A DNA stretch of 64,000 bases from a virus (Duplodnaviria > Heunggongvirae > Uroviricota > Caudoviricetes), in the IMG/VR virus record IMGVR_UViG_3300031992_000063, positions 22,390-86,389 of that record; one strand, given 5' to 3'. A program made the translations under genes and the position numbers. Shown piece by piece: positions 1 to 17,651 of this stretch. Below the pieces are notes generated by a model, which saw only the letters and a program-made list of their open reading frames with translations, was not told where the DNA came from and made no database searches. How positions within the stretch are numbered: position 1 is the stretch's first letter; each line of letters starts with the position of its first letter.

Positions 1-3000
1 ACCAATTATACAACTGCTGCCACCACCGCTACTTAGAGTGGATAGTTAATTGTAACAAGTGGTGATAGTTCTAATAATGTAGCTATTGAATTATATAGAA
101 ATAGCAGTGCCTCATGGCAAATTTATAATTCTAGTGGAGAATTATAGTTTAATAATAATTATACTACAGCAGCTTAGACAACTTATTCTCGTAATGCGCT
201 TAAATTAAGTTATAATACTGGTAATGCAACATTTGCAGGGACAGTAACTGCTACTGGAGGTTTCAGCGGCAGTCTCACTGGTAATGCTACTACCGCTGGT
301 TCAGCAGGAAAATTAACTTATCAATCTAAAATTAATACTTTAGAAGCATTAGATGCTTTCCATGAAGCTTAGACTTTTAAAGTCGCTACTCTTGCTTATT
401 TAGAAGGACATTCAGGTACACTTACTAAAAATGATGGTATAATTATTTCAGTTCCTTGGAGTGAATCATACGGCCATTAGTTTTATGTTGATGATAATAG
501 TTATTAGTTACATCATAGATTTTTACGGCCAGTAACAGTTAATGATGTTTCTACTCCTACTTGGGCCGATTGGGTTTAGATTATTGATAGCTCTAATTAT
601 ACAAGTTATACTGTAAAAAAAGATGGTACGGGAGCATCAGGAACTTGGGGAATTTCAATTAGCGGTAAAGCGACTACCGCTGGTACTGCAGATAAAATCA
701 GTAATTTGACTACTGCAGATTAGGCTTCTTCTGCCGCAACTTGGCGTAGAGTATGGATTTCTTATAATGATAATGTATATGGACGTCCAGCTTACACTGA
801 TAATTTAGTTTATCAAACTTCAACTAATACATTAAAAACGCCACATTTGCTAATTGAGCATGTCTCTGGCGGTTAGGCTGAAATGCATATAACATATAGC
901 ACTACAATAGATTATTGGTGGGGTGTGGGCACCGGAAATGAAAATCATGGGCTATATGATGTAAAAGCAAACAAGTGGATACTTTCTGCAGGAAGTGCTA
1001 ATACTTGGAGTTTTGTAGGAAATGCTGATACAGCAACCACTGCAACAAATCTTTCAGCAAAGCCTTCACTTGCGGCAAGCGAGAATAATATTACAGTGAC
1101 CGCTGGCGGAAAAACTAGTGATGCTTTTACTGTACCATATGCATCTAAAGCTGATACAATTAATTTAATCACTAATGAATAGTTTACTACAGATGCAGCT
1201 GGATGGTATACTGTGGCTTCATATAACTCTGCCAGTAATACAACCAGAGGAGATTTATGGTTTGCAATTTCTCATGGAGGCGGCGATATGTCTCCTTTAA
1301 GCTGCTGGATTCATTGTATTTTAACCTGGTCTACTGGTTCAATGGTTGATGCGCAATTCTTTGGTTCTAATAATTATGTTAAAGGCGTACGAATGACTAA
1401 AGATAGCGAAAAGACTTATATAGAAGTTAAATTCGGATCTTAGATAAAAAGTTCAAGTGCATTAATTGTACCAAGAAATATATTTACATCATTTAGTAAT
1501 AATTCTTATACATGGCATACTGGGGCACTTACTGCTTCCGCGTCAAATCGTACTATTGGTACAGAATATTTACATAATGGAAGTAGTATTAGTGTTTAGA
1601 ATACAATTGCCGCAAGCACGTTTATGGGACCTTTATATGGTAATGCGTCATCAGCTAGTAATATTAGCGAAAAAACTCCAATACTTGCTGCTTCTATTGA
1701 AAGTAATGAAATAAAAATTATAGATTTAGGTAACAGCGCTCCAGTTGCAGGGGCAGCGTAGCGGCATGCCATTGATTTTAGATGGTATAATTCTCACTGG
1801 GCAATAGGTAATTTACGCAGTGGTAATACTCAAAGTGCTGGATTTGGATTTAGTTATAGTAGCGATAGTGGAACAACTTATTCTAATTTAGTTACTATTT
1901 CTACCTCAGGGGAAATTACAGCGACCGGAGGATTTAGTGGTGATTTAACCGGTAATGTTAGTGGTTCTTCTGGAAGTTGTACTGGAAACGCAGCAACCGC
2001 GACAGGTATTTCAAAAGCAGGGGGCTCTACTGCTAACTTCTGGCGGGGTGACAATACTTGGTCTGATACATTAGTTGGCCCATTATATATTAACAGTACA
2101 ACAGATGCAGGTGGCACTGGTGATACGGGAGCATTAATAATTGGTAGCAAAACGGCAGAAAATATTGCCATTGATACTAATGAAGTTATGGCCCGCAACA
2201 ATAAATCTACTGCAACATTGTACCTTAATAACGATGGCGGACTAGTATCTATTGGTAGCGGTGGTTTATCGACAAGTGGAAAAATTACTAGTACATTAGA
2301 AGGTACTGCTGCTTAGTTTGGCAAGAATTCTGTATTAACAGTGACTGATAATGCTACTATTGCAAATAGAGCAGTTGATATTAAAGGAAAATTAAATTTA
2401 GATAGAGTTAGTAGTGCATCTTTTGGGCGTATTAGTTATTATTCTCCTTCCTATACAACTTGGTTTGATTATATGTCAGAGTCGGGGAATGGTAATGCGC
2501 CAACTGGCGGTAAACCAAGTACTTTAGGTAATGTAACTACTTGGGCTATTAGACATTTAATTGAACAAAATTCTGGGTACGGTTGGATTTGGGAATCATG
2601 TGCTAACGGTGCAGCTTCGGCAAATACAGTAACGCCAACGCCACGTATGGCATTAAGTTCAAATAATGGCCAACTAAGAATTGCGCCAAGTGCCTCATCT
2701 ACAACGAATGAAAGTGGCGGGTTAATTATTGATAGCTCAGTAAATGGTAGCTCTGGTAATGTAGCTCTAGAATTATGGCGTGGAAGTAATGCTTCATGGC
2801 AAATTGCTAATGAAGGCGGCAATTTATATATCCGTAATAACTGGACTACGGCCAAATAGACTTCATATACGCAAACTTCAGTTACAATTAATTATAATAC
2901 TGGTAATACAACATTCGCAGGAACAGTAACTGCAACTAAAGGCTTTAGTGGCCCATTAACTGGTAATGTTACTGGAAACGTTAGCGGCTCTTCTGGTTCA

Positions 3001-3675
3001 TGTACTGGTAACGCAGCAACTGCGACTACAGCTACTTATATTAAATGTACTGATACTCGCAATACTGAACTTAATCCTACGGATCTGAATGCAGCTACAG
3101 GCGTGCGTTTTGATTTTAAAGCAAAAGGTACTATTAGCTTAACCGCTACTGATCCTTACGCAGGAGTAATGTCATTTCGCCCTTACGCCAGTAATAGCGA
3201 CTGGTCAGGTGGCAATGCTCATCAATTAGCGTTTAATAGTGAAGGACTACATTGGCGTAATGGCGGCGCATCTTGGGGAAATTGGAATTAGATATTAGAT
3301 AGTAGTAATACATATGCAGCTGACGCCAATGGCTCTACTATTTCTCTTTCTTGGGGTGGCACAGCAACTTTAGCTACTATTAAAGGCGCTACTGTAAAAA
3401 TAACAATGCCAAATAATCCTAATACTGATTCTTCTGTTAAACAATCTTCCTCCACCTTACAAAACAAATGGCGCAAAGTAATACTTGGTTATAGTGAATA
3501 TGCTGCTTCTAACACAGCTGTAGGAGATGCCGTAACCAATGTTACATATATGGCATAGGATGTTGCGGTTTAGCCGCATACTGGCGCGATGCGCGCTAAT
3601 TCTTACAAAGTAACCGACAACGTAACTCTCCAATGGAACTCCACCGATAGTTCACTAGATTTCGTATTCGCATAA
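1..3675 (+). CDS. Tail fibre / receptor-binding protein, 5'-partial, more than 1200 codons; TAG read as sense
   Basis: Frame 1 is open from nt 1 to TAA at 3673-3675 and is interrupted only by about 19 TAG codons. Gly/Ser/Thr/Asn-rich repetitive tail-fibre composition with duplicated modules such as ...SASWQI.N..G.L.F.NN.TTA.(TAG)T.Y... The ORF track splits it into fragments 883..1182, 1213..1443, 2341..2859 and 3103..3291, all in the same frame. Confidence 0.75.
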
Positions 3676-3690
3676 GGATGGTGAATTCAT

Positions 3691-4026
3691 ATGTACACAT
3701 TACAGCTTGCTGATGGTTCAGCAATAGAAAATTTAAGGCGCTTAAATCCAAGCACTTTTATATTAGATGATACTGGCGCGAATATCTATGCCCGTCTATC
3801 TGATAGTAATCTTGAATTCGCCACCTTACTAAATGGGGACGAATTGGATGATGTGCTTATTGATTATACATTATAGAATTATACTGTCTAGGGAGGAACA
3901 ATCCGTTTTAGGATTGCTCCTCTCTAGGCTTTGGAAGAGCAAGAAAAACATAAGATAGAGCGAGAAAGATTGAAGAGAAATCATTGGTATATGGCCTTGA
4001 GAGTGGAAAAGGAGATGGGGTTGTGA
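3691..4026 (+). CDS. Small tail-associated protein (about 111 aa) with 3 in-frame TAG
   Basis: ATG 3691 in frame 1 reads through TAG three times to TGA at 4024-4026. Its stop overlaps the next gene's GTG start (GTGA junction). Contains a 17-bp hairpin. Confidence 0.45.
3885..3930 (+). other. 17-bp imperfect hairpin inside the 3691..4026 gene
   Basis: CTAGGGAGGAACAATCC-GTTTTA-GGATTGCTCCTCTCTAG. Confidence 0.4.
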
Positions 4027-6419
4027 GCTTACGTTTATGGGCGCCATTAAATGGCGACTTGCGGCAGATTGGAGCTTCTAATGCAGTATTAACGAATGAT
4101 GGAGCTACTGTTGATAATAACGGGAAAATTGGTAAATGTTATTCATTTGCTAATACTCATATTATAGTTGATAGCACTGATATTCAAGATATTTTATCAT
4201 CAACAACTTAGCCATTTTCAATGGCTTGTTGGATATATTTAAACAGCGATGAAACTGATAGAGTTATTATATTTGGAAATTATAGCGCCAATCCTTTTGT
4301 AAACTGGGAATTAGCTGCAAATTGTACTTAGCGTTTATGCGCGGGAGGTACAAGTAATTATGCTAATCGTACTAATAGTACTGTAGTTCCAAAAACTACT
4401 TGGACACATATTGCGGTAACATACAACGGAGCTACTACTACTTTCTATTAGAATGGTACTTCTGTTGGTAGTGTTAATGGCGTAAATACATTAACAACCA
4501 AAACAGCAAGTTCTAGATTTTATTTAGGCAGCGACGTTCGCAATGATGCTACGCGGTTAAAGGGAAAAATGAATGATTTTAGATTTTACGATCATTGCCT
4601 TTCTGCCGCTGAAGTTAAGGAAATTAGTTAGGGGCTGGTATTGCATTATAAGTTGGATGGAGGGGTGTTTGGAAATCCAAATCTATTAACCAATACAGAA
4701 AGATTAGATGCTAATGTTACCAAACCTTCAGGAGTGACAATTACTTCAAATGGATACAATAATTTTACTACCGCTACATATAATAATACATCTGGTACTT
4801 CATATCATGAATTATTAAGTTGGAGTGGGAAAGTAACGGTTTCAGCAAATGAAGTATATACTGCTTCATTTTATGCTAAATCTCCAACATCTGCTACATT
4901 AACTACCTATTTTTATAACAATACTTCTGGAGTAGTTTAGAATCAACTAGCAAAATCTTCTACCGGAGTAACTAGTAATGGTAGCGATGGAGTAATTTCT
5001 ATGGCATTAACTCCAAATTGGCAACGATATTGGATTACTTGGACGTTTAATTCTGTAGCAACATCTGCTACGAAAACTTTACTTTTTCGTCTTTTAAAGG
5101 GCTAGGGTGAAGTCTCAGTATGTGGTATTAAACTTGAAAAGGGTAATGCCGCGACTCCTTGGTGTCCCGCAGATAGCGAGCTATCAATTGATAGGACAAT
5201 TGTTGAAGATAGTAGTGGCTATAATCACAATGCCATATCCAATGGCTCCGCTGTAGTAACTCTAGATTCTGATACTCCTAAATATTCAGCTTCTACAAAA
5301 TTTATATCTGGTTCTAGAATAGCGATGCCCGTTGCTTCATCTACATGTCTGCCCACAGACGCTATTACGGTCAGTATATGGTATAAATCATCCGGTGGTA
5401 CTGCTCGATTTTTATCATGCACTGAAGGCGGCGGTTGGAACTTTGAAGTCAATTCTTCTAAAGCTTCTTTTCCCTTTTATATAAAAGGAAAAGGATATGG
5501 TCGTGTTATTGCTACTTAGAACTTCTATTCAGATAACATATGGCATATGATAACAGCATCATATAATGGAGTGAGTACTGCTAAAATTTATTTAGATGGT
5601 TAGTTAAATAATACGGCTACTATTACTAGCGGATGGGAAAATATACCGATTTCATATGCTACCTCTACTCCATTAACTCTTGGGGCAGAAGCTTAGACAA
5701 TCGCATCTCCAATTGCGGGAACTTATGTAGGCAATTTGAGTGATTTAAGAATATATTGTACTGCATTAAGCGATGATGCGGTACTTGAACTATATCACAC
5801 TGGCGCAAAAGTAGACAATAAAGCCAATATTCACACATATGAGATTAATGAAAATGGCGCGAATAAATTAACCAAAACTGGCATCTTATATGATAATATG
5901 ATAGAATCTATTAAAGTTCTGCCAGACGGAAGTTATTGGCAACTTCTCTTATTTCATTACGTAGATAACGGCAATAACCTTTTCACTTCTTCCAATGCCA
6001 CCAATTGTAACGACTTCGGTTTATATAGCCGCCTAAAAGATATAAATAATTTTACCTATAATGGAAAATATGAGTTCTATGTAATCCAAGATGATATAGA
6101 ATACCGATGGACACAAACAAACCAGCCAACCGCTTCTTCAGTTTCAGGATTAACTACTGTTAGTGGCTATGCCAACCCAGTTAATGGTCTAGCTAAAGCA
6201 AGCCAATCATATACATATATTGGCTATGGTACTTGGTGGGGTGCTTGCGGTGCGTGGACTAAATATTCAACTGGCGGAAAAACTGGTATTCCAGGTTTTG
6301 GCACTCATGATGTCAATGGTATGTGTACGCGTTATTTGGCATTGTATGCACGAATAGAAAAACCAGACGCAAAATTATCAAATCAAACTGCTAATAGTTT
6401 TGAATTTATAGAACTCTAA
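4023..6419 (+). CDS. Tail fibre / receptor-binding protein with two LamG (concanavalin A-like lectin) domains; TAG read as sense
   Basis: Frame 3 is open from GTG 4023 (RBS AAAGGAG 9 nt upstream) to TAA at 6417-6419, with about 9 in-frame TAG. LamG signatures are WTHIAVTYNGATTTFY(TAG)NG...RFYLGSD...FRFYDHCLSAAEV and a second copy ...ITVSIWYKSSGG...KIYLDG... The ORF track fragments 3984, 4641, 5325 and 5736 are all in frame 3. Confidence 0.75.
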
Positions 6420-6422
6420 TAT

Positions 6423-6452
6423 TTGACAATTCATTAACTAATATGATATAAT
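6423..6452 (+). promoter_or_regulatory. Consensus sigma70/SigA-type promoter (TTGACA - 18 nt - TGaTATAAT)
   Basis: Member of the promoter family repeated about 23 times in this window. Confidence 0.6.
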
Positions 6453-6543
6453 ATAATTATAGTAAAGGGCTGCTGCTTCGCGCCGGTCGCTTTACTGAAC
6501 CTATAAGGGGTGTATAGGCCCCTTATTATTTTAATAAGGGGGG

Positions 6544-6702
6544 ATGACTTATAGCGTAGTTAAAATCAACCGTTATTCAAGGAAGTTTGAGAGTAACGGA
6601 TACGACATATACAACGGACTTATCGGCAACAGAAATGTCTACGTCTTTAATGAAAATAAATACTGGTGGCACTGGAGCAGATTAGACCAACGCAGGAATT
6701 AA
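6544..6702 (+). CDS. Small ORF (52 aa) downstream of a strong RBS; frame 1
   Basis: AAGGGGGG followed by ATG 6544. It overlaps the open 5' end of the frame-2 tail-fibre gene. This could be a real leader gene or an alternative-frame artefact. Confidence 0.25.
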   Translation: MTYSVVKINRYSRKFESNGYDIYNGLIGNRNVYVFNENKYWWHWSRLDQRRN

Positions 6703-9004
6703 TTTTTATAATGGTACAACATTAACTGGACATATGGGTAGTAGTAATACAGTTGTAGGAATTTACGGAGCTGACTCAATAGTTTTACGTCCAGGTGGAG
6801 CATCGGGAAATTCAACCAAAGGATTAAAATTATCTGCATCTAGTTTATTACCATAGCCCGCTAATACAATTGATCTCGGTGGTACTAGCAATTATTGGAA
6901 AACCGCATATTTAAGTGATATATATTTGTCAAGCGCTACCGCCTCATAGGCGATTGTTACGGATGCGGATAAGAAATTAGTAAGTAAACAATATACTCAA
7001 GACAACGTCGCATCCACTCTTGTATCTAGAGACGCAAGTGGTGATTTTAGTGCTCACACTATTACAGCGGCATTAAATGGTAATGCCTCAACTGCAACTA
7101 AACTTGCTGCCGCATGCACTATTTGGGGACATTCTTTTGATGGTAGTGGAGATATAGATGGTAATCCTATATTAAAAAATAGTGGTTCACGCTATCATTA
7201 TATTTATATTAAATAGCATAATACAGATAATACTGTCGGGGCTATAATGTACGATACTGGTAATGCTACCAATGTTACAGCCGGCCATTGGTATTTTTAT
7301 TCATATAGTCCAAAAGCAACAGCCGATAGTGGAACAAGTGGTCATTTTGAACGTTATCATTTACCAGCAGTAGATATAGGACGAACCAGCGATAAAACTT
7401 ATCAAATATTAACTGATAAATCTGTAGTTACAGTAGCATAGGGCGGTACTGGTATAACTACAGCTACATATAAAAATGCTATTATTGCGGGTAATGCCAG
7501 TACTGTGACAAATGCTTTTTAGGCTATTCGCACTAATAATGGAGCTTTTTATGCTACTGCGTAGGATGGAGCACCAAGTTTTGGCACATTACCAGTCGCA
7601 TAGGGCGGCACTGGCGCAACAAGTGCGGGTGCTGCTTATTCCAATATTAAGAATGGTAATTTTTTGTCTTGTAGTACCGCAATAGATGATGCCGCAAAAG
7701 TAGCTAGTTATACTGGTTTTGCACTAAAAACTGGAATAACTATAAGTATTAAATTTACACTATAGAATACCGCTGCAAATCCTACTTTAAATGTTAATGG
7801 TACCGGGGCAAAAGCAATTTATTGTAATGGAACAAGAGTAACCACTAAAGGTTTAGCACAAAATTACATTTATAGATTAATGTATGATGGAACTGATTGG
7901 CAAATTATAAATCCATAGAATAATTTAATTGGAACATGTGATACTGCAGTAGATACCACTGCTAAAACTTTAGATATTCCAGGATTTATACCATATACCG
8001 GAGCAACAGTATGGATTCAATTTACTAATAATAATAGTACTGCCACTCCAACTTTAAATATTAATGGTTATGGAGCGAAAAATATTTATAATGCTGGTGG
8101 ATAGACACGTACTCAATGGTATGTTTTTAATAAGAATCAATATCAAATTTTCATGTATGATGGTACTAAATTTAATATGACTGGTAATACTTTAAGACGT
8201 GAAATCTCTTTAGGAACTACTAGCTCACATGGATATGAAACAATCTTTTTAGGAAATAATATAGTTTCTACATCTCAAAATGGTATGACAGGAGTATTAG
8301 GATTATATAATGCCAAAACAAATGTTTTAAGAATTACAGCTGAAAAAAATAATTCTACTACTAATCGTTATTGGTATTTGCCTGATTTAAATTCTAATCG
8401 TTATTTTGTTACGCGTAATGCAGACGGTAGCCTAGGGAGTGAATCATAGCCAGTATATATTAGCGCTCACGCGGCAGTTAGCCTTTGTACTGCCACCCTT
8501 GATCTCGTCTATCCTGTCGGTTCTATCTACATTTCCACGGTTGCTGACAATCCGGGTGGCGGCGCAGATGCTATTTTTCCGAATACAACATGGGTGGCAT
8601 TTGGAAAAGGTAGAATGCTTATTGGATATGATGATGCACAAGGTAGCACCTTTGGTACTGGTGGCGCAGAAGGCGGAAGTACGACAAAATCGCTTGTTGA
8701 CGTTAATCTTCCTAGCCATTAGCATTTAATTAGTAGTGATAAAGTATCTACTAATAGTACTGGAGCACACCAACATAAAGGTTATAATGACTGGGTAGCA
8801 ACCACAAACGGAGGTTCTGGTCGTTTAACTGGCCAACAGAGCGGTTCTTCAAATACTTCAAATCCTATTACTCAATCTGCTGGCGATCATTCTCATACAG
8901 TTTCTGGTGTAACTGATTTTACTCCAGCAGAAGGCTCTGGTGCAGTTCCCTTTGATGTAATGAACCCTTATGTTGTAGTTTATATGTGGAAACGTACCGT
9001 GTAA
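6650..9004 (+). CDS. Tail fibre protein with a C-terminal HxH needle-type domain; TAG read as sense; N-terminus uncertain
   Basis: Frame 2 is open from 6548 to TAA at 9002-9004 with about 13 in-frame TAG. The first ATG is at 6650. Contains ...VA(TAG)GGTGITTA... and ...VA(TAG)GGTGATSAGAA... tail-fibre motifs. The C-terminal ...GAHQHKG...AGDHSHTVSG... HxH motifs resemble T4 gp37 and lambda Stf tips. Confidence 0.7.
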
Positions 9005-9020
9005 AAGGAGGACTTAATAA

Positions 9021-9551
9021 ATGATTAAAATTAACAATTTAGAACTTCAAGAAATATCTTGTTCCTATACAGATTCTACTTTACGAATTGTTGCGGATAT
9101 TTAGAATATAACTCTCCAAGAGCTTGAATCTTACTTTTCTTTTAATACCGATGCTACCATTGAACAATATATTAATGATACCCTTATCAATAAATGGTAT
9201 TATAAGGAATTTAAATCAATTGGTTATGAAAAAACAGAAACTGGGTGGCATATCAATTTAACTCTTGAAGCCTATGTTATCGCTCAAGACAATATTACCG
9301 ATATATATAATTTACTTCAAGAAAAAGAAGACGCTCTTCTAGAGATTGCTTCTTTAATAGACACATCAGACACTCAAACCAATAAAATTAACGAAGCAAT
9401 TGAAAATGTTAATAAACAGATTGAAGAGTTAAAAAATTCAATATTAAAACGATTTAATGAATTACAACAAACAATTTATAACTTAAGTAATAACCAAACA
9501 CGATTAACTACTCGTGTAACCAATCTTGAGTTAAATCAAGGAGGTCGTTAA
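9021..9551 (+). CDS. Tail-associated hypothetical protein (176 aa), C-terminal coiled coil, 1 in-frame TAG
   Basis: RBS AAGGAGG followed by ATG 9021. Frame 3 runs to TAA at 9549-9551 with one TAG at codon 30. Missing from the ORF track because the TAG splits it. Confidence 0.55.
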
Positions 9552-9552
9552 T

Positions 9553-9660
9553 ATGGTTCAAATTTATGTACGACGTATCCGTGAGAAAAAAATGACATTG
9601 CAAGATGTACCATAGAAATGGCGCGAACAAGTTAAAACATATCTTGAAAATAATTAATTA
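9553..9660 (+). CDS. XkdX-like small phage protein (35 aa), 1 in-frame TAG
   Basis: ATG 9553 lies 1 nt after the previous stop, with RBS AAGGAGG. MVQIYVRRIREKKMTLQDVP(TAG)KWREQVKTYLENN resembles the XkdX family that follows tail-fibre genes in Bacillus phages. Confidence 0.45.
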
Positions 9661-9699
9661 AAATTAATTCTAACCTCACATCTTATATATAGAACTTCT

Positions 9700-9737
9700 A
9701 TGCCTAAAAGTTAAAAAGCTTTTAGGCATAATTTTTA
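9700..9737 (+). terminator. Rho-independent terminator
   Basis: ATGCCTAAAAG-TTAAAA-AGCTTTTAGGCAT followed by AATTTTT. Confidence 0.6.
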
Positions 9738-9752
9738 AGGAGGAAAAGGAGA

Positions 9753-10715
9753 ATGGAGTATACACATAAAAGTTGGGCAAATGGTGAAGTAATCACCGCG
9801 GCAGCACTAAATAATATTGAAGACGGAGTGAAGCGCGCAAACGATGCTGTTGATGGTATGGTAGCCAATGGAGTTTCTTCTAATTCACTAAATATTAATA
9901 ATAAAATTACCGGTACCAATGATGGTATTTTAACAGTAGATAAGAAATTAATAGTTGGAAATAATGATAGTAGCTCTACAACAGTAGTTAGTTTAAAAGG
10001 AATCCTTGAAACTAATAGTGAGATTATATTACCGTCAACTTAGTCTGACAATGCTAATTCTGCTACAAGTAAATCATATGTGGATAGTGAAATTAACAAT
10101 AAAATCGCTAATGCTCTTAATGATTATCAAGTGAAATCAATTAGTGTAGGACAAACTGGTGGAATTTCCACTTCAACTACTGATAAAGTAGTAACTTTAA
10201 CGCTTGCTACTGCTTCGGATAAACAATTGGGTGGAATCAAAGTAGGTAAAAATTTAACAATAGATAACGGTGTATTAAGTGGTGGTTATTCTGCTGCTGA
10301 GCCTTATATGGATGAAAATAATCCTGGGGCAGATGGATTAATGACAGCGAGCGATAAAGCAAAATTAACCAGTATCGCCGCAGGAGCAACAGCAAATATT
10401 GGTACTGTTACTGGCATCAGGATAAATAGCGATAGAGCCTATGCTCCAGAAGCAAGTGGCTAGGTAAATATTCAAGGAATAGTAACCGGAATTAAGGTAA
10501 GCAATAACACTATTCTTTCTCCAAATCCAGAAGCAACCGGTGAAGATATCGGTGTCGTTGATATTAGCAGCCACTTTTCTACTAAAGCTAATATCGCTAG
10601 CCCAACTTTTACCGGCACCGCTACTTTTGAGAAAATTAAAATCGGTAATTACGAACTTGACGAAACAAAACTATCACAATTACTTGCACTGCTTGAAAAT
10701 AATGGAGGCGAATAA
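9753..10715 (+). CDS. Tail fibre-like protein with the 'GLMxAxDKxKL' phage tail repeat (320 aa), 2 in-frame TAG
   Basis: RBS GGAGGAAAAGGAG followed by ATG 9753. The frame is continuous through TAG at 10041 and 10461 to TAA. Motif ...ADGLMTASDKAKLTSIAAGATAN... Confidence 0.65.
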
Positions 10716-10717
10716 TT

Positions 10718-10909
10718 ATGACTATAATGTCTAAACGCGGTTCATCTGACAACGTTCTAACATACGAACACATCTGCGACACCGTAGATGACTTACAAAC
10801 GATTGACCCTAAATACATAACTCTCGGCTCCGTCGCAATTGTTCTTAAAGGCGCGGCCGGACTTGAAGTTTATATGGCTACTTCTGATAAAGAATGGATT
10901 CATCTATAA
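10718..10909 (+). CDS. Hypothetical protein (63 aa)
   Basis: ORF track entry. RBS GGAGG. Confidence 0.5.
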   Translation: MTIMSKRGSSDNVLTYEHICDTVDDLQTIDPKYITLGSVAIVLKGAAGLEVYMATSDKEWIHL

Positions 10910-10922
10910 GGAGGAATAATAT

Positions 10923-12845
10923 ATGGATATTATTGATGTAATGCTTGCGAAAGCATTGTCTCCGCAAGGATAGGTTGAATCTTATGCGCGGCAATCTGAA
11001 ACAGCAGTAGCCAATGCGAATAGCGCCGTTGCCGCCATTGATAGTATTACGCAACAGACCAATACAAACAATACAAAATCATAGGAAACTCTCGCGGCGG
11101 CAGAGCAAGCATTAGAGAATGCTTCTGCCGCAGAAGAGCGTATTCAAGCGGCGCTAGACTCAATTCAAGGTTCTTCTACAGAGCAAATTGATGAAGAAAT
11201 TGATAAAATTGCGTTAAGTCTTGCCGCGACTGCTAATGGCTCTAAATTGACGCTTACTACGCCCTCTGGCGCGAAAAAAGAAGTAGAAGGATGGGCAATG
11301 CCGCAACAGCAGCAGCAAACCTTGTATTCTACCACCGGTTCTCACACCGATGGCGCAATGACGCAGAAGGCAGTTACTGATGCCTTAACTTCTTTAGACA
11401 ATAAAATTAAAACCAGCGGTGGCACAAGTAGTGGTGGCGTCAGCAATCTCGGTACTGATGCCGCAGGGCGTATCGTAGTAGTTGGCGCAGATGGTAATAT
11501 CATTGCTGGTGATATCACCGAAGCCGCTATTGTTCAGGCGCTAATTAAAGCAGGTACATATACCGCAGATGGCACTCTTGGTCTTACTATTGACTATGAA
11601 AATAAATCTTTTGAGCGTACCCAAGATGCTATTGGTTTGCGCGCAGGAGAAAACTTTGATGGTTATGCTATGTATGGCGGCAGAATGCGTTGTAATGTAC
11701 GAGATGATGGTACAATCACTGCCTTCTATGGAGATTTAAATTATAAAGAAGATGGCTCTAATGGGCAGGTTATGATTTATCAACCCAAGTTCTATTACCA
11801 GCGTTCTTTTGTCAAGGAAACGCCATCAGCTCACGGAACTATTATTCGGCGCGAAAATCTTATACTTTCCGCGCAGGAGCGAGTAGGCTTCCAACTTCAT
11901 CCTTTGTTTAAATCTGGCGATGAAGAACTAGATTATGTATTACTTCCTGCTTATGAAGGTAGTGTATATGATGCTAGTGAAAGTGCCTATCTTCTAAATA
12001 ACGAAAGCACTGTGGATATCGCCCAAGACAAATTGAGTTCTATTGCCGGTGCGAAGCCTTTTAATGGCACACATATGTCCTTAACAGTAGATATGGTTAA
12101 AGCACTCGCCGCAAATCGCGGTGCTGGTTGGCAACTAACTAATGCCGAATCCGAGTCCGCTCTACAAATGCTAGAAACAGTTGAGTTCGGTTCTATGAAC
12201 GGACAAGCCGCATTAGAGAAAGGTCTTACAGAAATCAACCGTGCCAATTCAACAGATTGTAGCGCAATTACTGGTTCTACTTCAAGCTTAGGTAATACTA
12301 CTGGCGCGGCGGAATCCACTGTAATTGACCGCGATGGCACTAGAACAACCTCTTCTGTTGCCGGTTCTCGCGCAATTAGCTACCGTGGTATGGAAAATCC
12401 TTGGGGTGAAATGTGGAGACTTATTGGTAATGGAGAAATCCAGGGCAATGGAAATACTCTCGGCGGCGTTCCTTATATCAATGGTAACCCGCTTAATATT
12501 CACCTTCCTCACGCATCTTCTGCTTGGATTTCTGCTATGGGATATCAAAATCTTAAATACGATTGGATGTATCTTCCAATTGAATGTGCTACAAGCGCGA
12601 ATAGCGCAGTTCCAGTAGGCGATGCTCTCTGGACTACTCAAAATCTTAATGCTACTAACCTCTTAGCAGTTGGCGGTTCAATTAATGCGAATGATGCCGC
12701 AGGCCCATTCTATTATAGCGCTGACATCGGTATGACAAGTGAAATTCGTTATTTTAATGGGCGCATTATGTTTGTGCCAACAAAGAACTCCATTTATGAT
12801 GCTAATATCACTAAATGGCGCGCGCACTATAAGGAGGGACAGTAA
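10923..12845 (+). CDS. Receptor-binding tail protein (about 640 aa), 2 in-frame TAG near the N-terminus
   Basis: RBS AAGGAGGA followed by ATG 10923. It is in the same frame as ORF 11247..12845 and joined to it through TAG codons at about 10974 and 11082. Confidence 0.65.
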
Positions 12846-12846
12846 T

Positions 12847-13092
12847 ATGATAGATTATGGAAGACAGTTTGGCTTTGTTGAGCCGCAAGAAGTAGAATTT
12901 ACAGATACTTCTGTATTTGTTGCTTCTAATATTCAGCCTAAAAATAAAAATGTAGAAGACTTTCAAATTAATGGATACGAATATGACCTTGTACAATATA
13001 CAAAGGATGAATATTTAATGAAGCAAGCCAATAGTATTGCCGCCTTACAACAAGAACTCGCCGCGGCAAAGATATTATTGGGGGTGGAGTAA
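12847..13092 (+). CDS. Hypothetical small tail-associated protein (81 aa)
   Basis: ATG 1 nt after the upstream stop, with RBS AAGGAGGG. Confidence 0.5.
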   Translation: MIDYGRQFGFVEPQEVEFTDTSVFVASNIQPKNKNVEDFQINGYEYDLVQYTKDEYLMKQANSIAALQQELAAAKILLGVE

Positions 13093-13095
13093 TCA

Positions 13096-13506
13096 ATGAC
13101 TTTAATTGAACTCGCGCGCAAATTGCGCCCATATATAGAAAAAGCGGCTTTATCTTTATCAGATGAAGATGCGCTAGAAGCCGTTGATTTATTTCCCCGC
13201 TGGGATGTTAATCACGGCGAATATGTAAAAGATGATAAAGTGAGATTTGAGGGCGTATTATATAAATGTCTTCAACAGCATTTTCCATAGGCAGGTTGGG
13301 CGCCAACATTGGCACCAAGCCTATGGACGAAAGTACTTATTCCAGATGAAAATGTTATTCCTGAATGGGAGCAGCCCGATAGCACTAATCCTTATATGAA
13401 AGGCGATAAGGTAATGTTTGATGGGAAAGTATATGAAAGTGCTATTGATAATAATATTTGGTCGCCCACTGCTTATCCAGCCGGCTGGGCAGAGGTAAAT
13501 ATTTGA
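13096..13506 (+). CDS. Tandem CBM5/12-type carbohydrate (chitin)-binding domain protein (136 aa), 1 in-frame TAG
   Basis: ORFs 13096..13290 and 13309..13506 share a frame and are joined by TAG. Two repeats of the ChtBD3 pattern: ...VKDDKVRFEGVLYKCLQQHFP(TAG)AGWAPTLAPSLW... and ...YMKGDKVMFDGKVYESA...AGW. Confidence 0.65.
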
Positions 13507-13531
13507 CTTTTTCCTAAATTTATAATATAAT
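13503..13531 (+). promoter_or_regulatory. Consensus promoter (TTGACT-17-TATAAT)
   Basis: Promoter family member. The upstream gene's TGA stop lies inside AATATTTGACT. Confidence 0.55.
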
Positions 13532-13562
13532 AATTATACAATGAAGGAAAGGAGAAAAGAAT

Positions 13563-13844
13563 ATGAAGCAGAGAATTAATATTACAGTAGATGAAAATGA
13601 TGAAGTTGAGCGTCTATTTCTAACTTATAATTCATATATGAGTATGCTTCAATATCTTGCCAACACGGATATGGGCAGTACCCCCGTATATGATAAGAAA
13701 TGGAAAGAAGCATCAGACCTTTGGGTCCAATTGGATAAGAAAAAGCGCGAAATTGAACTTAAATACAAGCCCGCCGGAGACTGGGATAGTTATGAATTTG
13801 ATTTTGAAAATCAGCAGGTGGTGTTTGTAAAAGATGAGGCTTGA
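13563..13844 (+). CDS. Hypothetical protein (93 aa)
   Basis: ORF track entry. RBS GGAGA. Confidence 0.5.
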   Translation: MKQRINITVDENDEVERLFLTYNSYMSMLQYLANTDMGSTPVYDKKWKEASDLWVQLDKKKREIELKYKPAGDWDSYEFDFENQQVVFVKDEA

Positions 13845-15132
13845 TTTCTCCGATTAGATTATAAAGATGTATATGCGCGAAGACCCCGAAGCGACTTGTA
13901 GAAATATTACTTTTTAGGTAACGGATGATTGTTGCTTGAATTGTAGCTATTGCTATTAGACACACAAGGGTCATCGTATGATGAGTAAAGAAACCGCGAA
14001 AGAAATAGTAGATTTATTGTTTAAATTGTATGACGAAAACAATGAAGATACTGTCATAAATCATCATACATATGGTATTGTTTTGGACTTTATCGGCGGC
14101 GAACCATTTATGAATATTGATATCATATCTTTCGTTACTGAATACTTTATTCAGGAATGCGTTCGCCGCGACCATATTTGGCTTACTAATTTTCGTGTAT
14201 CTATGAGTTCCAATGGATTATTATATTTTGAGCCAAAAGTCTAGGAATACTTGCGTAAGTATAAAGACTTTGTTAGCTTAAATATAACAATTGATGGACC
14301 GAAAGAAATACATGATACTTGCCGCAAAGATTTTAGCGGCGAGGGTAGTTTTGATAGGTCAATAAAGGCATGGGAACATTGGTATCATGAGGTAAAGGTA
14401 AATATGCCAGATACAAAAGTAACGATTGCGCCCGAAAACCTATCCTAGCTTGAGTCAACATTTGATTTCTTTCTAGCCAATGGCTGTACTACTATTCACG
14501 CAAATCCAATCTTTGAGCATCCTTGGACTATTCGTGAGGCAAGTGAATATTATCATATATTAATTCGCCTTGCGGATAAACTATTAAAGGTTGAAGGCGC
14601 GGAAAGTTCCCTATTCTCCGACTTTAAAGGTAAGCCTTTGCCGCCAGAGGATACTAATAACTATTGCGGCGGCACTGCGGCAATGTTGGCTTTTGACCCA
14701 GATGGCAAAGCATATCCTTGCTTGCGCTATATGGCAAGTTCACTTTCACCAGAACGGGCGCCACTTGTAATTGGAGATACGCATGGAATATATAATACAC
14801 CAGAATACAAAGCAATATATGATGATATGAAGGCGGTAACGCGGCAATCGCAATCTTTACAAGAATGTTTAGATTGCCCTGTCGCATCCGGTTGTGCGTG
14901 GTGCTCGGCAGAAAACTACAATGAATTCGGCACCTATAACAAACGCTCTATTAACATATGTTGGATGCATCGCGCCGAAGCACTTGCGAATGTATATTAT
15001 TGGAATAAGTATTATAAATTACATAATATCAAAGATACATTCCCATTATATCTACCTAGAAATATAGCGGAAAAAATAATTACAAATCACGAATATAATG
15101 AGTTATATATATTATCACACTCTAATATTTGA
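13834..15132 (+). CDS. Radical SAM / SPASM-domain protein (anSME/peptide-maturase-like, about 432 aa) with 5 in-frame TAG
   Basis: ATG 13834 overlaps the upstream stop in an ATGA junction. Frame 1 is continuous through TAG at 13855, 13915, 13957, 14245 and 14446 to TGA at 15130-15132. CxxxCxxC = ...ITF(TAG)VTDDCCLNCSYCY(TAG)THKG. GGEP motif LDFIGGEPFMN. SPASM-like CGGTAAM...YPC and CLDCPVASGCAWCSAEN. Confidence 0.7.
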
Positions 15133-15157
15133 CTTTTGTAGAAATTTCTGCTATAAT
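15129..15157 (+). promoter_or_regulatory. Consensus promoter (TTGACT-17-TATAAT)
   Basis: Promoter family member. The rSAM gene's TGA stop lies inside AATATTTGACT. Confidence 0.55.
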
Positions 15158-15227
15158 ATATACAGAAAGTGGGTAAGGAACCAACTTTCTAAAAAATAAT
15201 TTTCATAACATAAGGAGGTTATGAGGT

Positions 15228-15566
15228 ATGAAGTATTATTCTGAAAAACTTCATAAGGTCTTTGACACCGTCGAAGCTTGTCAGCGTGCGGAGTTTGAAG
15301 AAAAGGAAAAGGAAAATCTTGAAAAAATCCAGAAGGAAAAGGCTCTAAGGGAAGCTAAGGAGCGCAAGGAAAAGGAAGCCGCAGAGCGTAAAGCTATGGC
15401 TGATAAGGTTGAGACTGCGCGCAAAGCTTATCTTGAAGCACAGAAAGCTTATAGGACTGAACTAGAAGCATTCTGCCAGAAGTATGGCACCTATCATTAT
15501 ACAGTGAGTGATGCCGATGAGGTTCCTTCTCTATTTGATGCTTTCAAGTATGCCTTTACTTGGTAA
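15228..15566 (+). CDS. Charged coiled-coil hypothetical protein (112 aa)
   Basis: ORF track entry. RBS AAGGAGG. Confidence 0.55.
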   Translation: MKYYSEKLHKVFDTVEACQRAEFEEKEKENLEKIQKEKALREAKERKEKEAAERKAMADKVETARKAYLEAQKAYRTELEAFCQKYGTYHYTVSDADEVPSLFDAFKYAFTW

Positions 15567-15605
15567 GTAAGGCTTAGGACTGAGCCTTATCAGTCCAACT
15601 TTCTT

Positions 15606-15694
15606 AGCCCCTTAGTTGAATGGCACAACAGCTGACTCTAAATCAGTAAGTGGGATTGACCCCGCGGGTGAGCGTTCGAGTCGCTCAGGGGCCG
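15606..15694 (+). tRNA. Candidate amber-suppressor tRNA, anticodon CUA (reads UAG); isotype undetermined
   Basis: Cloverleaf: AGCCCCT / TA / D stem GTTG-AATGGCA-CAAC / anticodon stem GCTGA, loop CTCTAAA (U33, CUA, A37), TCAGT / 22-nt variable region with GTGGG-ATTGAC-CCCGC helix / T arm GAGCG-TTCGAGT-CGCTC / AGGGGCC / G73. A1-C72 is unpaired. Confidence 0.6.
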
Positions 15695-15781
15695 CGTGGG
15701 AAGCGGACGGCTAGCTACCGAAACGAGATAAGGATGCCCTATCATCCAGCCAAATTTTATTTCTATAGGGAGGAATATAAA

Positions 15782-16450
15782 ATGACGGGATTTATCTATG
15801 TAATTACAAATGATGTAAATGGAAAGTAGTATGTTGGAAAAACTACTGATACTTTAGCCGGACGATTTAGTGACCATTGTAAAGATTCGGTTTTATCTAA
15901 ATGTAAAGGAAGACCTTTATATTATGCTATGAATAAATATGGGAAAGAACATTTTCATATTTCGTAGTTAGAAGAATGTGAACTAGATATTTTACCAGAA
16001 AGAGAATAGTTTTGGATAAAAGAATTAGATACTTATCATAATGGTTATAATGCCACTCTTGGAGGAGAAGGCAAGCAATATTATGATTATAATCTATTCG
16101 TTCAAGATTTTAATAATGGTATGAATATTAAAGAAATTGCTTAGAAATATCATTGTGGTACAGAAACAGTAAGCAAGGCTTTGCGAAAGGCGGGATTAGA
16201 TACTTTTCGCGGAAGTAAATATAATGCTCGTTCAAATAGGATTCCAATATTACAATTTTCGATGGATGATAATTTTTTACAGGAATTTGACTCAATTTGG
16301 ACAGCCGCTAAGTGGATAATGGAAAATCATTTTACCACCTCTACTAATCAAGGTCAAGTATAGAGTAATATTAGCGGAGCAGCGCGATAGATAGGATATA
16401 GAAAATCAGCATATGGATTTAAGTGGCGGCTAAAAGAAGAAGAAAATTAA
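15782..16450 (+). CDS. GIY-YIG homing endonuclease (I-TevI/Seg-like) with 6 in-frame TAG
   Basis: RBS GGGAGG followed by ATG 15782. GFIYVITNDVNGK(TAG)YVGKT...FHIS(TAG)LEECE...ERE(TAG)FWIKELDTYHNGYNATLGG, a C-terminal HTH (KEIA(TAG)KY...) and ...YGFKWRLKEEEN. Frame 2 is continuous to TAA at 16448-16450. Confidence 0.75.
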
Positions 16451-16515
16451 ATTAATTCGACACATACAGCAAACTTTGATGAAATAACTGGAAATTATCA
16501 GCGTGTCGAGTATTT

Positions 16516-16586
16516 GCGCCATTCGTATAGCGGTAATATGTCTGCCTTCCAAGCAGATGCGGCGGGTTCGAGTCTCGCATGGCGCT
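16516..16586 (+). tRNA. tRNA-Gly(TCC)
   Basis: GCGCCAT acceptor, D stem GTAT/ATGT, anticodon loop CTTCCAA, T arm GCGGG-TTCGAGT-CTCGC. Confidence 0.7.
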
Positions 16587-16696
16587 TTAATAAATTGGGA
16601 CGCTTCACCTAGCCAAAGCCGTTAATCGAGGCTATAAGTATCGATTGGAGTGAAGCAAATTTTACCTGTTGGGAGAAGGCTTGGGTAAAATATTTT

Positions 16697-16894
16697 ATGC
16701 GGTGGCGAAATAATTTTATGAAACAATCTGAAGCATATGAGTTATTGCGAAAAGAATATCTTTCAAAATTACAAGATATTGGTTGCGATGGATGTATAGC
16801 AGAATATTACTGCATTGAGAATCATCTCCGAACAGACCGTTTTCCGCAAAAGGACTGCTCTGAAAAACTTAAAGATTACCTTCAACGGTTGTAA
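16697..16894 (+). CDS. Hypothetical protein (65 aa)
   Basis: ORF track entry. Confidence 0.45.
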   Translation: MRWRNNFMKQSEAYELLRKEYLSKLQDIGCDGCIAEYYCIENHLRTDRFPQKDCSEKLKDYLQRL

Positions 16895-17201: not shown

Positions 17202-17203
17202 AT

Positions 17204-17627: not shown

Positions 17628-17651
17628 TATTATAGAAAGTGAGGGAGAGAA

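What the first reader, a model, noticed from the sequence alone, without database searches (positions are those of the whole stretch)
1..16450. TAG is a sense codon: tail-fibre and other genes are continuous reading frames interrupted only by TAG
Four tail-fibre/receptor-binding genes contain about 45 in-frame TAG codons and no in-frame TAA or TGA. The genes are <1..3675, 4023..6419, about 6650..9004 and 10923..12845. Sequence on both sides of each TAG stays tail-fibre-like and in frame, and paralogous modules align across the TAG positions. The same holds for 9021..9551, the XkdX-like 9553..9660, 9753..10715, the CBM5/12 gene, the rSAM gene (5 TAG) and the GIY-YIG endonuclease (6 TAG). Every gene end I checked uses TAA or TGA, never TAG. 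This is phage stop-codon recoding: in phage precedents TAG is read as Gln via a suppressor tRNA. Genes carrying TAG would be translatable only when the suppressor is present.
Basis: partly seen in the sequence, partly recalled or inferred. Interest (0 to 1): 0.9.

Follow-up and report, generated by a model that had tools for sequence, protein, structure and literature searches.

The report
Phage reads TAG stop as glutamine

Summary
Eighteen + strand genes contain 93 in-frame TAG codons (about 62 within 1..16450) and no in-frame TAA or TGA. Codon usage stays in frame across the TAGs. Every gene model ends in TAA or TGA.

Comparison with DNA from about 60 related IMG/VR phage loci shows the window's TAG sites facing TAG, CAA or CAG. 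At three invariant PhoH columns, one also Gln in a solved Corynebacterium PhoH, TAG alternates only with Gln codons. Within the window TAG has replaced CAG.

It is unusual: it has a long variable arm like Ser, Leu and Tyr tRNAs, but a Gln-type acceptor end (A1·C72, G2-C71, G10, G73). It belongs to a conserved family in related phages.

Nucleic-acid-metabolism genes (polynucleotide kinase, ligases, RNase H, topoisomerase) are TAG-free, which fits the published model of delayed expression of recoded genes.

This is a new member of a known kind. The points of modest novelty are the shape of the suppressor tRNA and the tRNA-like inserts inside other tRNA genes.

The parts
1..3675 (+). Tail-fibre-like gene, cut by the window start. 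19 in-frame TAG, stop TAA.
   Evidence: No in-frame TAA or TGA against 175 in the other two frames. An internal paralogous module aligns across 4 TAG.
3691..4026 (+). Small gene (111 aa) with 3 in-frame TAG. Its stop TGA overlaps the GTG start of the next gene.
   Evidence: translation and upstream sequence.
4023..6419 (+). Virion structural or tail-fibre gene. 9 in-frame TAG, stop TAA.
   Evidence: PHROG hits at residues 41-200 and 216-389 span five TAG sites. Stop counts.
6635..9004 (+). Tail-fibre-like gene. 13 in-frame TAG, stop TAA.
   Evidence: phrog_24267 match at residues 604-712.
9021..9551 (+). Coiled-coil protein gene. 1 TAG, stop TAA.
9553..9657 (+). 34-codon ORF with a Shine-Dalgarno site. 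1 TAG, stop TAA. The 'XkdX-like' label is not supported.
9753..10715 (+). Tail-fibre-like gene. 2 TAG, stop TAA.
10923..12845 (+). Tail protein (phrog_5302). 2 TAG in the N-terminal 54 codons, stop TAA.
   Evidence: E 6e-47. Relatives have TAG, CAA and other sense codons at both sites.
13096..13506 (+). CBM5/12 carbohydrate-binding protein. 1 TAG, stop TGA.
   Evidence: Pfam CBM_5_12, E 2.7e-16. At the TAG site relatives have TAG 3, CAA 6, CAG 1.
13834..15132 (+). Radical SAM/SPASM peptide maturase, close to TIGR04115. 5 TAG, stop TGA.
   Evidence: At TAG sites 28, 42 and 137 relatives have only TAG, CAG or CAA.
15129..15157 (+). Sigma-70-like promoter match (TTGACT, 17 nt, TATAAT, with extended -10 TG). 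It lies upstream of the TAG-free ORF 15228..15566 and the suppressor tRNA.
   Evidence: This is a consensus match only.
15606..15694 (+). Amber suppressor tRNA(CUA). 89 nt, long variable arm, A1·C72 mismatch, G2-C71, G10, G73. No encoded CCA.
   Evidence: ARAGORN; Rfam tRNA 51.7 bits; family alignment with covariation.
15734..16450 (+). GIY-YIG homing-endonuclease-like gene. 6 TAG, stop TAA.
   Evidence: Pfam GIY-YIG at residues 3-90 spans 3 TAG.
17928..18002 (+). Phage tRNA-Gln(UUG), which reads CAA. With the CUA suppressor it covers the two Gln codons favoured in TAG-bearing genes.
38468..40426 (+). Gene of unknown function (652 aa). 17 in-frame TAG, stop TAA.
   Evidence: Only 5 clear homologues. 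AlphaFold model unusable, pLDDT 41.
44393..45631 (+). PIN-PhoH ATPase gene. 4 TAG, stop TAA. This is the main gene used to assign TAG to Gln.
45757..46572 (+). GIY-YIG/NUMOD endonuclease-like gene. 5 TAG, stop TGA.
47381..47770 (+). Small gene with 2 TAG.
   Evidence: at site 52 relatives have CAA 16, CAG 1, TAG 2.
58044..59339 (+). N4/N6 DNA methylase with an N-terminal extension. One TAG at 58488 must be read through.
   Evidence: The Pfam domain starts after the TAG. No start codon or Shine-Dalgarno site follows the TAG.

Best explanation
The window comes from a large, uncultured tailed phage that translates part of its genome in genetic code 15, where TAG means glutamine and TAA and TGA are the only stops.

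**Shown**
- TAG sits inside intact, conserved reading frames.
- TAG is never needed as a terminator.
- TAG occupies positions that are CAA or CAG in relatives.
- Within this genome TAG has taken over the share of CAG.
- The phage encodes a tRNA with anticodon CUA at 15606..15694.

**Inferred**
- The tRNA is aminoacylated with Gln by the host, either by GlnRS directly or by non-discriminating GluRS plus the amidotransferase. Its acceptor end has Gln-type features: a weak 1-72 pair, G2-C71, G10 and G73.
- It then outcompetes release factor 1 at UAG.
- Nucleic-acid-metabolism genes contain no TAG and can be translated on entry.
- Tail-fibre, tail, maturase, homing-endonuclease, PhoH and some unknown genes give full-length protein only once the suppressor has accumulated. 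That would delay their expression.
For: **Reading frames**
- No in-frame TAA or TGA in the 12 largest TAG genes; the other frames of the four longest carry them at 6.7-9%.
- The annotated frame is kept in 80 of 84 windows after a TAG, against 9 of 38 after true stops.
- + strand coding density in 1..16450 is 93% with TAG as sense, 74% under code 11.
- Pfam, PHROG and NCBIfam matches run across TAG sites.

**Termination**
- All 64 gene models end in TAA or TGA.

**Gln assignment**
- PhoH alignment columns 227, 235 and 376 hold only TAG, CAA or CAG in 38 sequences.
- PDB 3B85 has Gln at the first of these.
- A Gln profile fits best by more than 200 log units.
- In close relatives 79 of 86 sites are TAG and 7 are CAG or CAA.
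- Gln-family codon shares in TAG genes are CAA .49, CAG .12, TAG .40. In TAG-free genes they are CAA .45, CAG .55.
- Q+TAG makes up 3.66% of codons in TAG genes; Q makes up 3.10% in TAG-free genes.

**Suppressor tRNA**
- Detected.
- In 14 family members, 18 of 20 cloverleaf pairs covary and the 1-72 pair is never G-C. G2 and G10 are invariant. G73 is present in 12 of 14.
- A genuine phage tRNA-Gln(UUG) in L078 has the same acceptor stem and G73 as the L047 and L057 suppressors.
- The Gln identity set comes from the review PMC9976931.

**Split between gene classes**
- There are 0 TAG in 9449 codons of 47 TAG-free gene models. Among those annotated are polynucleotide kinase, phosphoesterase, RNA and DNA ligases, RNase H, topoisomerase II and a protease.
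- TAG makes up 1.3% of codons in TAG-bearing genes.

**Precedent**
- Borges et al., bioRxiv 10.1101/2021.08.26.457843.
- The abstract of PMC9523058 reports proteomic support for code 15 in crAss-like phages.
Against: - There is no protein-level evidence for this phage.
- The suppressor has a long variable arm plus G73. These are the main determinants for SerRS, so some Ser insertion cannot be excluded.
- Three elements of the E. coli Gln identity set are absent from the window copy: it has C3-G70 rather than G3-C70, A36 and A38.
- The division into early and late genes is not clean. PhoH, two homing endonucleases, a DNA methylase and an rSAM enzyme also carry TAG, while a head-maturation protease and a third GIY-YIG gene do not.
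- Expression timing was not measured.
- The host is unknown, so its genetic code is assumed to be standard.
- Only 64 kb of the genome is visible. Another suppressor, a release factor or a synthetase could lie elsewhere.
Confidence: 0.92

Rival explanations
1. TAG is a sense codon, but the class II-shaped tRNA(CUA) is charged by SerRS. TAG would then be read as Ser, or as a Gln/Ser mixture.
For: - The tRNA has a 5-bp variable-arm stem and G73.
- Ser codons do occur opposite some TAG sites: 15 of 392. They were 9 of 51 in the reciprocal comparison at 60-80% identity.
Against: - Gln codons dominate opposite TAG: 153 of 392 overall and 73 of 101 at 60-97% identity. The Ser profile fits about 250-380 log units worse.
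- Invariant Gln columns in PhoH carry TAG.
- Bacterial tRNA-Ser keeps G1-C72, whereas the family never has G-C at 1-72.
- Replacing acceptor-helix pairs converts an amber tRNA-Ser to Gln acceptance (PMC9976931).
Confidence: 0.06
2. TAG means Gln, but the decoding tRNA is a different, ordinary-shaped suppressor encoded outside the window. The long tRNA(CUA) would then have another role or a minor one.
For: - Related phages carry 73-76-nt tRNA(CUA) genes, for example in L029, L032, L062 and L065.
- L051, which is 98% identical to the window over the shared region, has a second 76-nt tRNA(CUA) that the window lacks.
- Only part of the genome is visible.
Against: - The long form is conserved in at least 14 distinct sequences with full cloverleaf covariation.
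- It sits downstream of the rSAM homologue in L051/L054, L056, L057/L059 and L060 as well as in the window.
- It is the only CUA tRNA among 20 tRNA genes in the window.
- Its acceptor end is Gln-like.
Confidence: 0.12
3. The TAGs are real stops. The genes would then be pseudogenes or gene fragments, or the TAGs would be assembly or sequencing errors.
For: Under code 11 the region does break into 33 ORF fragments.
Against: - Only TAG interrupts the frames, never TAA or TGA. Chance probability is 1e-24 to 1e-40 per long gene.
- Coding signal continues in the same frame after each TAG.
- 79 of 86 TAGs are conserved in independent assemblies.
- No gene needs TAG as its terminator.
Confidence: 0.01
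4. TAG encodes pyrrolysine. ARAGORN labels the tRNA 'tRNA-Pyl'.
For: The label is given automatically to any CUA anticodon.
Against: - From my own knowledge, tRNA-Pyl has a 3-nt variable loop, a small D loop without G18G19 and a 6-bp anticodon stem.
- This tRNA has G18G19, a TTCGA T loop, a 5-bp anticodon stem and a long variable arm.
- TAG aligns with Gln, not Lys.
- No pyl genes were found among the window's annotated ORFs.
Confidence: 0.01

Closest known systems
Code-15 (TAG to Gln) phages: crAss-like, Lak, Garnet, Agate and others (Borges et al., bioRxiv 10.1101/2021.08.26.457843; Peters et al., PMC9523058)
   Same: - In-frame TAG in structural and other genes.
- TAG aligns with Gln.
- A phage-encoded tRNA(CUA).
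- A low-GC genome in which TAG is not used as a stop.
- A set of genes compatible with the standard code.
   Different: - A different, uncultured lineage. The best GenBank phage match to PhoH is 31% identical and there is no megablast match.
- Heavy Shine-Dalgarno use points to a host that uses Shine-Dalgarno sites, probably Bacillota.
- No release factor or synthetase in the visible 64 kb.
- The suppressor has a long variable arm.
phAss-1 / Phassvirus group of TAG-recoded gut phages (PMC10607447)
   Same: - A large genome with a tRNA array.
- TAG in virion genes and several DNA-processing genes.
- tRNA-Sup-CTA genes.
- No dedicated synthetase.
- Gln inferred from alignments.
   Different: No detectable sequence relationship was tested or seen here. 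phAss-1 has three tRNA-Sup genes, which tRNAscan-SE assigns to Gln.
Laboratory amber suppressors converted to Gln identity (E. coli amber tRNA-Ser with altered 1-72 and 3-70 pairs; PMC9976931, its ref. 82)
   Same: A class II body with a long variable arm, a CUA anticodon and a weakened first base pair, which gives acceptance by GlnRS.
   Different: - Those are engineered mutants of a cellular tRNA-Ser.
- This is a natural, conserved phage family.
- It has a 4-bp D stem, a 7-nt D loop and a conserved YUGA variable-arm loop.
Theta (HDV-like) ribozymes 3' of phage suppressor tRNAs (PMC10879173)
   Same: The context is the same: an amber suppressor tRNA in a recoded gut phage.
   Different: No HDV-like Rfam match at E <= 1 anywhere in 15000..27000. 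The theta motif itself may not be in Rfam.
allo-tRNAs (8/4 or 9/3 acceptor/T branch, long variable arm; PMC5389517)
   Same: Unusual tRNAs with a long variable arm, some with stop anticodons, found in bacteria and phages.
   Different: The window tRNA has the canonical 7/5 acceptor/T-stem layout.

Membership tests
Code-15 (TAG to Gln) recoded phage | In-frame TAG inside otherwise intact, conserved genes, with no other in-frame stops | tested here: met
   93 TAG in 18 genes. No in-frame TAA or TGA in the 12 largest or in any gene model. HMM matches span TAG sites.
Code-15 (TAG to Gln) recoded phage | TAG is not used as a terminator | tested here: met
   All gene models end in TAA (50, counting the small ORF at 9553) or TGA (14). 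The one ambiguous case, the TAG at 58488 in the methylase gene, has no restart signal after it.
Code-15 (TAG to Gln) recoded phage | TAG positions correspond to Gln in homologues | tested here: met
   Codons were read from the DNA of relatives, so the result does not depend on how a database translated them.
Code-15 (TAG to Gln) recoded phage | Phage-encoded suppressor tRNA with anticodon CUA | tested here: met
   tRNA at 15606..15694: ARAGORN and Rfam, 51.7 bits.
Code-15 (TAG to Gln) recoded phage | Recoded codons concentrated in structural, lysis or late genes, with early genes compatible with the standard code | tested here: inconclusive
   Tail and fibre genes are rich in TAG. Polynucleotide kinase, ligases, RNase H and topoisomerase II have none. 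However, PhoH, the methylase, two endonucleases and the rSAM gene also carry TAG. No lysis genes were identified and timing is unknown.
Code-15 (TAG to Gln) recoded phage | The host uses the standard code | not testable with these tools
   Host unknown. Shine-Dalgarno sites precede 55 of 63 genes, which only suggests a host that uses them.
Code-15 (TAG to Gln) recoded phage | Peptides with Gln at TAG | not testable with these tools
   Needs proteomics.
Bacterial tRNA-Gln identity (E. coli set: G73, U1-A72, G2-C71, G3-C70, G10, U35, G36, A37, U38; PMC9976931) | Weak 1-72 pair, G73, G2-C71, G10, U35 and A37 | tested here: met
   The window copy has A1·C72, G73, G2-C71, G10, U35 and A37. Across the family, 1-72 is UA 5, AU 4, AC 3, GU 2.
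Bacterial tRNA-Gln identity (E. coli set: G73, U1-A72, G2-C71, G3-C70, G10, U35, G36, A37, U38; PMC9976931) | G3-C70, G36, U38 and a short variable loop | tested here: not met
   The window copy has C3-G70, A36 (forced by the CUA anticodon), A38 and a variable region of about 22 nt. It is therefore Gln-like at the acceptor end but not a standard tRNA-Gln.
Bacterial tRNA-Ser (class II) | Long variable arm and G73 | tested here: met
Bacterial tRNA-Ser (class II) | Conserved G1-C72 (with G2-C71) | tested here: not met
   The 1-72 pair is never G-C in 14 family members. The rule comes from PMC9976931.
Bacterial tRNA-Tyr / tRNA-Leu (class II) | Discriminator A73 | tested here: not met
   G73 in the window copy and in 12 of 14 relatives.
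tRNA-Pyl | Short variable loop, small D loop lacking G18G19, 6-bp anticodon stem (from my own knowledge) | tested here: not met
   G18G19 are present, the anticodon stem is 5 bp and the variable arm is long.

The most novel reading that the evidence does not exclude
The long-variable-arm tRNA(CUA) may be a distinct, conserved class of natural amber suppressor. It combines a class II-shaped body, a Gln-type acceptor end and a conserved YUGA loop on the extra arm.

The extra arm could be a functional handle rather than a relic. Possible roles:
- recognition by a phage or host factor that controls when the tRNA is charged or processed;
- protection from host anticodon nucleases;
- deliberate dual Gln/Ser decoding.

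Together with the tRNA-like elements nested after nucleotide 34 of other tRNA genes in this lineage, this would point to an unusual tRNA biology tied to the code switch.
Probability: 0.2. Interest if true: 0.6.

Novelty: new member of a known kind. Interest (0 to 1): 0.3.

Why it matters
- **Annotation.** With code 11 this region breaks into 33 fragments, and the tail-fibre and receptor-binding genes are lost. Those genes are the ones needed for host prediction. Public gene callers already translate this lineage's PhoH with Gln at TAG (P0001), so the recoding itself is not news.
- **Biology.** The window is a clean example of two codon dialects in one genome. TAG takes the place of CAG only in one gene class. 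This supports the published idea that recoding delays or gates expression of part of the phage genome.
- **The one element that could repay experiments.** The suppressor tRNA is a natural class II-shaped tRNA that evolution appears to have pushed to Gln identity. It would be useful for understanding how host synthetases are co-opted, and possibly as a scaffold for orthogonal suppressors.

Tried and rejected
- **GenBank phages.** Megablast of 40000..64000 against the phage collection found nothing. tblastn of PhoH gave at most 31% identity. There is no named relative.
- **Single-protein locus searches.** The searches for the 38468..40426 gene and the rSAM gene returned only 1 and 8 loci. Most codon evidence therefore comes from PhoH neighbourhoods.
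- **Function of 38468..40426.** Only 5 clear homologues were found. The AlphaFold2 model of the 94%-identical P0121 had pLDDT 41, so no fold search was run and the function stays unknown.
- **Theta or HDV-like ribozyme 3' of the suppressor.** No Rfam match at E <= 1.
- **Origin of the suppressor by similarity to other tRNAs.** Not decisive: the best scores were spread over Asn, Leu, Ala and Gln. Only the acceptor stem shared with a tRNA-Gln(UUG) was informative.
- **Distant rSAM structures (5WGG, 4K37).** They align across the TAGs but face variable residues there, so they do not help identify the amino acid.
- **Summed ORF length on both strands as a code test.** Too noisy, because removing any stop lengthens spurious ORFs. 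I replaced it with + strand non-overlapping coverage.
- **ARAGORN intron mode.** It offers a reading in which the extra arm is an 18-nt intron. I rejected this because the canonical anticodon stem is intact and conserved.
- **Exact search for the window's tRNA insert in viral contigs.** No match.

Full report
**1. What is in the sequence**

The window has 37% GC and all convincing genes lie on the + strand. If only TAA and TGA count as stops, the first 16.4 kb resolves into 12 long ORFs. Under code 11 it gives 33 fragments. + strand coverage is 93% against 74%, and the control of freeing TGA instead gives 77%.

One gene was missed: 3691..4026, with 3 TAG.

The 12 largest TAG-bearing genes have no in-frame TAA or TGA. 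The other two frames of the four longest contain them at 6.7-9% of codons. The chance of such open frames is 1e-24 to 1e-40 per long gene.

**2. Is it coding across the TAGs?**

I trained a codon-usage model only on TAG-free genes of the window. It prefers the annotated frame in 77 of 79 windows of 40 codons before TAG sites and in 80 of 84 after them. After genuine TAA/TGA stops the same frame wins in only 9 of 38 cases.

Profile matches run straight through TAG sites:
- Radical_SAM, GIY-YIG, PhoH and CBM_5_12
- virion and tail PHROGs and phrog_1802
- TIGR04115 over residues 23-389 of the rSAM protein
- the solved rSAM enzyme 5WGG over residues 5-302

In gene 1 an N-terminal module aligns with a C-terminal copy at 57% identity (E 9e-36) across four TAG positions.

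All gene models terminate in TAA or TGA. The one place where TAG might have been a stop is 58488, upstream of the DNA-methylase domain. It is followed by CTA TTA CAT with no start codon or ribosome-binding site, so it must be read through.

**3. Which amino acid?**

Database homologues of the PIN-PhoH protein show Q at three of its four TAG positions. Those proteins could have been translated with code 15, so I went to DNA.

In 37 related IMG/VR loci the PhoH codon alignment has three columns containing only TAG, CAA and CAG:

| Column | TAG | CAA | CAG |
|---|---|---|---|
| 227 | 4 | 26 | 8 |
| 235 | 6 | 29 | 3 |
| 376 | 6 | 28 | 4 |

The window itself has TAG at the first two. About half of these loci have no TAG in PhoH at all. 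The first column is Gln in the Corynebacterium PhoH structure 3B85, from an organism with the standard code.

I then ran tblastn of all TAG-bearing window proteins against 61 loci:
- The sense codon opposite a window TAG is Gln in 153 of 392 cases overall.
- It is Gln in 73 of 101 cases at 60-97% identity.
- Scored against the substitution profile of each residue in the same alignments, Gln wins by more than 200 log-likelihood units over the next residues (K, E and S at 60-97% identity).

In relatives at least 90% identical, which come from independent assemblies, 79 of 86 sites are TAG and the remaining 7 are all CAG or CAA. This also rules out assembly error.

Inside the window the three-codon 'Gln family' splits as follows:

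| Gene class | CAA | CAG | TAG |
|---|---|---|---|
| TAG-bearing genes | .49 | .12 | .40 |
| TAG-free genes | .45 | .55 | 0 |

TAG has replaced CAG, which is a single C-to-T change. Q+TAG content is 3.66% in TAG genes, close to the 3.10% Q content of TAG-free genes.

**4. The decoder**

A tRNA with anticodon CUA lies at 15606..15694 (ARAGORN; Rfam tRNA 51.7 bits). ARAGORN's 'Pyl' label is automatic for any CUA anticodon.

The tRNA is 89 nt long because it has a long variable arm with a 5-bp stem, like bacterial Ser, Leu and Tyr tRNAs. It is not a one-off. Pattern searches recovered more than 20 tRNA(CUA) calls of 84-97 nt, alongside ordinary forms of 73-76 nt. Long forms lie downstream of the rSAM homologue in L051/L054, L056, L057/L059 and L060, as in the window.

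In an alignment of 14 long forms:
- 18 of 20 cloverleaf pairs show compensatory changes.
- The 1-72 pair is U-A (5), A-U (4), A·C (3) or G·U (2), and never G-C.
- G2 and G10 are invariant.
- Position 73 is G in 12 of 14.
- Each member can form a 4-6-bp (at least 3-bp) variable-arm stem of different sequence around a conserved YUGA loop.

The published bacterial Gln identity set is G73, U1-A72, G2-C71, G3-C70, G10, U35, G36, A37 and U38. Amidotransferases also read U1-A72. An amber tRNA-Ser was converted to Gln acceptance by changing the 1-72 and 3-70 pairs. Bacterial tRNA-Ser keeps G1-C72, while Tyr and Leu tRNAs need A73 (PMC9976931).

The phage tRNA therefore has a Gln-type acceptor end on a class II-shaped body. 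A genuine phage tRNA-Gln(UUG) in L078 has exactly the acceptor stem and discriminator of the L047 and L057 suppressors. I recall that classical su+3 tRNA-Tyr amber mutants with A1 or G at the discriminator insert Gln. That is from memory and was not checked here.

Charging with Gln is an inference. Partial Ser charging cannot be excluded from sequence.

**5. Which genes use TAG?**

No TAG in 9449 codons of 47 gene models. Those annotated include:
- polynucleotide kinase and a phosphoesterase
- a DUF2828-type RNA-binding protein
- RNA ligase and DNA ligase
- RNase H
- both topoisomerase II subunits
- nucleoside deoxyribosyltransferase
- a permease and an SPFH protein
- a head-maturation protease

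TAG at 1.3% of codons:
- the tail-fibre and tail genes
- the CBM protein
- the rSAM maturase
- two of three GIY-YIG endonucleases
- PIN-PhoH
- an unknown 652-aa protein (17 TAG)
- a DNA methylase (1 TAG)

Late-class genes also favour TTA, ATA, AAA and CCA, codons read by the phage's own tRNAs.

A near-consensus sigma-70-like promoter lies at 15129..15157. It precedes a TAG-free ORF, a hairpin at 15577..15596 and then the suppressor. This is only a consensus match.

No release factor or aminoacyl-tRNA synthetase was found in the window. The gating of TAG genes by suppressor accumulation is the published model. It is consistent with this split but was not shown here.

**6. Comparison with what is known, and verdict**

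TAG-to-Gln recoding with phage suppressor tRNAs has been described across many gut phage clades. The abstract of PMC9523058 reports proteomic support in crAss-like phages. A gene caller has already produced a full-length PhoH with Q at the TAG sites for a 99%-identical contig.

The lineage itself has no close GenBank relative. It probably infects a host that uses Shine-Dalgarno sites, which precede 55 of 63 genes.

The finding is real and correctly interpreted. It is a new member of a known kind, and I score interest at 0.3. The residual novelty lies in the class II-shaped, Gln-type suppressor family. Outside the finding, it also lies in tRNA-like elements nested after nucleotide 34 of other tRNA genes.

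Noticed in passing
L051 4514..4663 (window equivalent 17848..17921): In a contig 98% identical to the window, the tRNA-Ile(UAU) gene is split after nucleotide 34 by a 76-nt insert. The insert is itself a perfect cloverleaf tRNA(CUA) ending in CCA. The window's copy is uninterrupted. This is a tRNA nested in a tRNA and a second, mobile-looking amber suppressor.
   Followed up: partly
window 19865..20028: An Rfam tRNA hit that ARAGORN missed. It is probably a tRNA-Asn(GUU) interrupted after nucleotide 34 by a roughly 95-nt insert. The insert folds into a tRNA-like shape: a 7-bp acceptor stem, D and T arms, G73 and CCA, but no normal anticodon arm. An exact search for the insert in viral contigs found nothing. 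ARAGORN intron mode suggests more interrupted tRNA genes in related loci.
   Followed up: partly
window 29461..30553 and 34716..36092: An RNA repair and ligation gene set: polynucleotide kinase, a phosphoesterase and an ATP-dependent RNA ligase. All are TAG-free and lie next to a 20-gene tRNA array. They could reseal anticodon-loop breaks, including any left by excision of the nested tRNA-like inserts. This is speculation.
   Followed up: no
window 15162..15224; 22098..22134 and 22147..22183: A match to the Rfam cow-rumen-4 RNA motif (63.8 bits) lies just upstream of ORF 15228..15566, between the rSAM gene and the suppressor tRNA. One abiF RNA motif match (37.9 bits) and a weaker second copy lie inside the tRNA array.
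   Followed up: no
window 13834..15132: The rSAM/SPASM enzyme is closest to the 'CXXX-repeat target' peptide maturases (TIGR04115, 334 bits against a cut-off of 350). Neither flanking small ORF (13563..13844, 15228..15566) has CXXX repeats, so its substrate is unknown. It sits next to the tail-fibre genes.
   Followed up: partly
window, all gene starts: GGAG-, GAGG- or AGGA-type Shine-Dalgarno motifs precede 55 of 63 genes, against a 10% background. This suggests a host that uses Shine-Dalgarno sites (probably Bacillota) rather than Bacteroidota.
   Followed up: partly
variable arm of window 15606..15694 and 13 relatives (alignment A1): The loop of the long variable arm keeps a YUGA motif in almost all members while the stem sequence changes. 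This hints that the extra arm is recognised by something.
   Followed up: partly
L046 3842..3931 and 4060..4131: A related 166-kb phage contig carries both a long tRNA(CUA) and a tRNA with anticodon UUA, an ochre-type suppressor.
   Followed up: no
window 48226..49518 and 36538..37470: The phage encodes a xanthine/uracil permease family protein (Pfam E 2e-54) and an SPFH/Band 7 protein. Both are TAG-free. They are unusual auxiliary genes.
   Followed up: no
window 58380..58460: A run of AAAGAA/AAAAAG repeats encodes a (KE)n linker between an N-terminal domain and the DNA methylase domain. The single TAG of this gene lies just after it.
   Followed up: partly
window 56774..57928: A third GIY-YIG endonuclease-like gene has no TAG, unlike the two others (6 and 5 TAG). 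Mobile endonuclease genes in one genome therefore differ in their code dialect.
   Followed up: no
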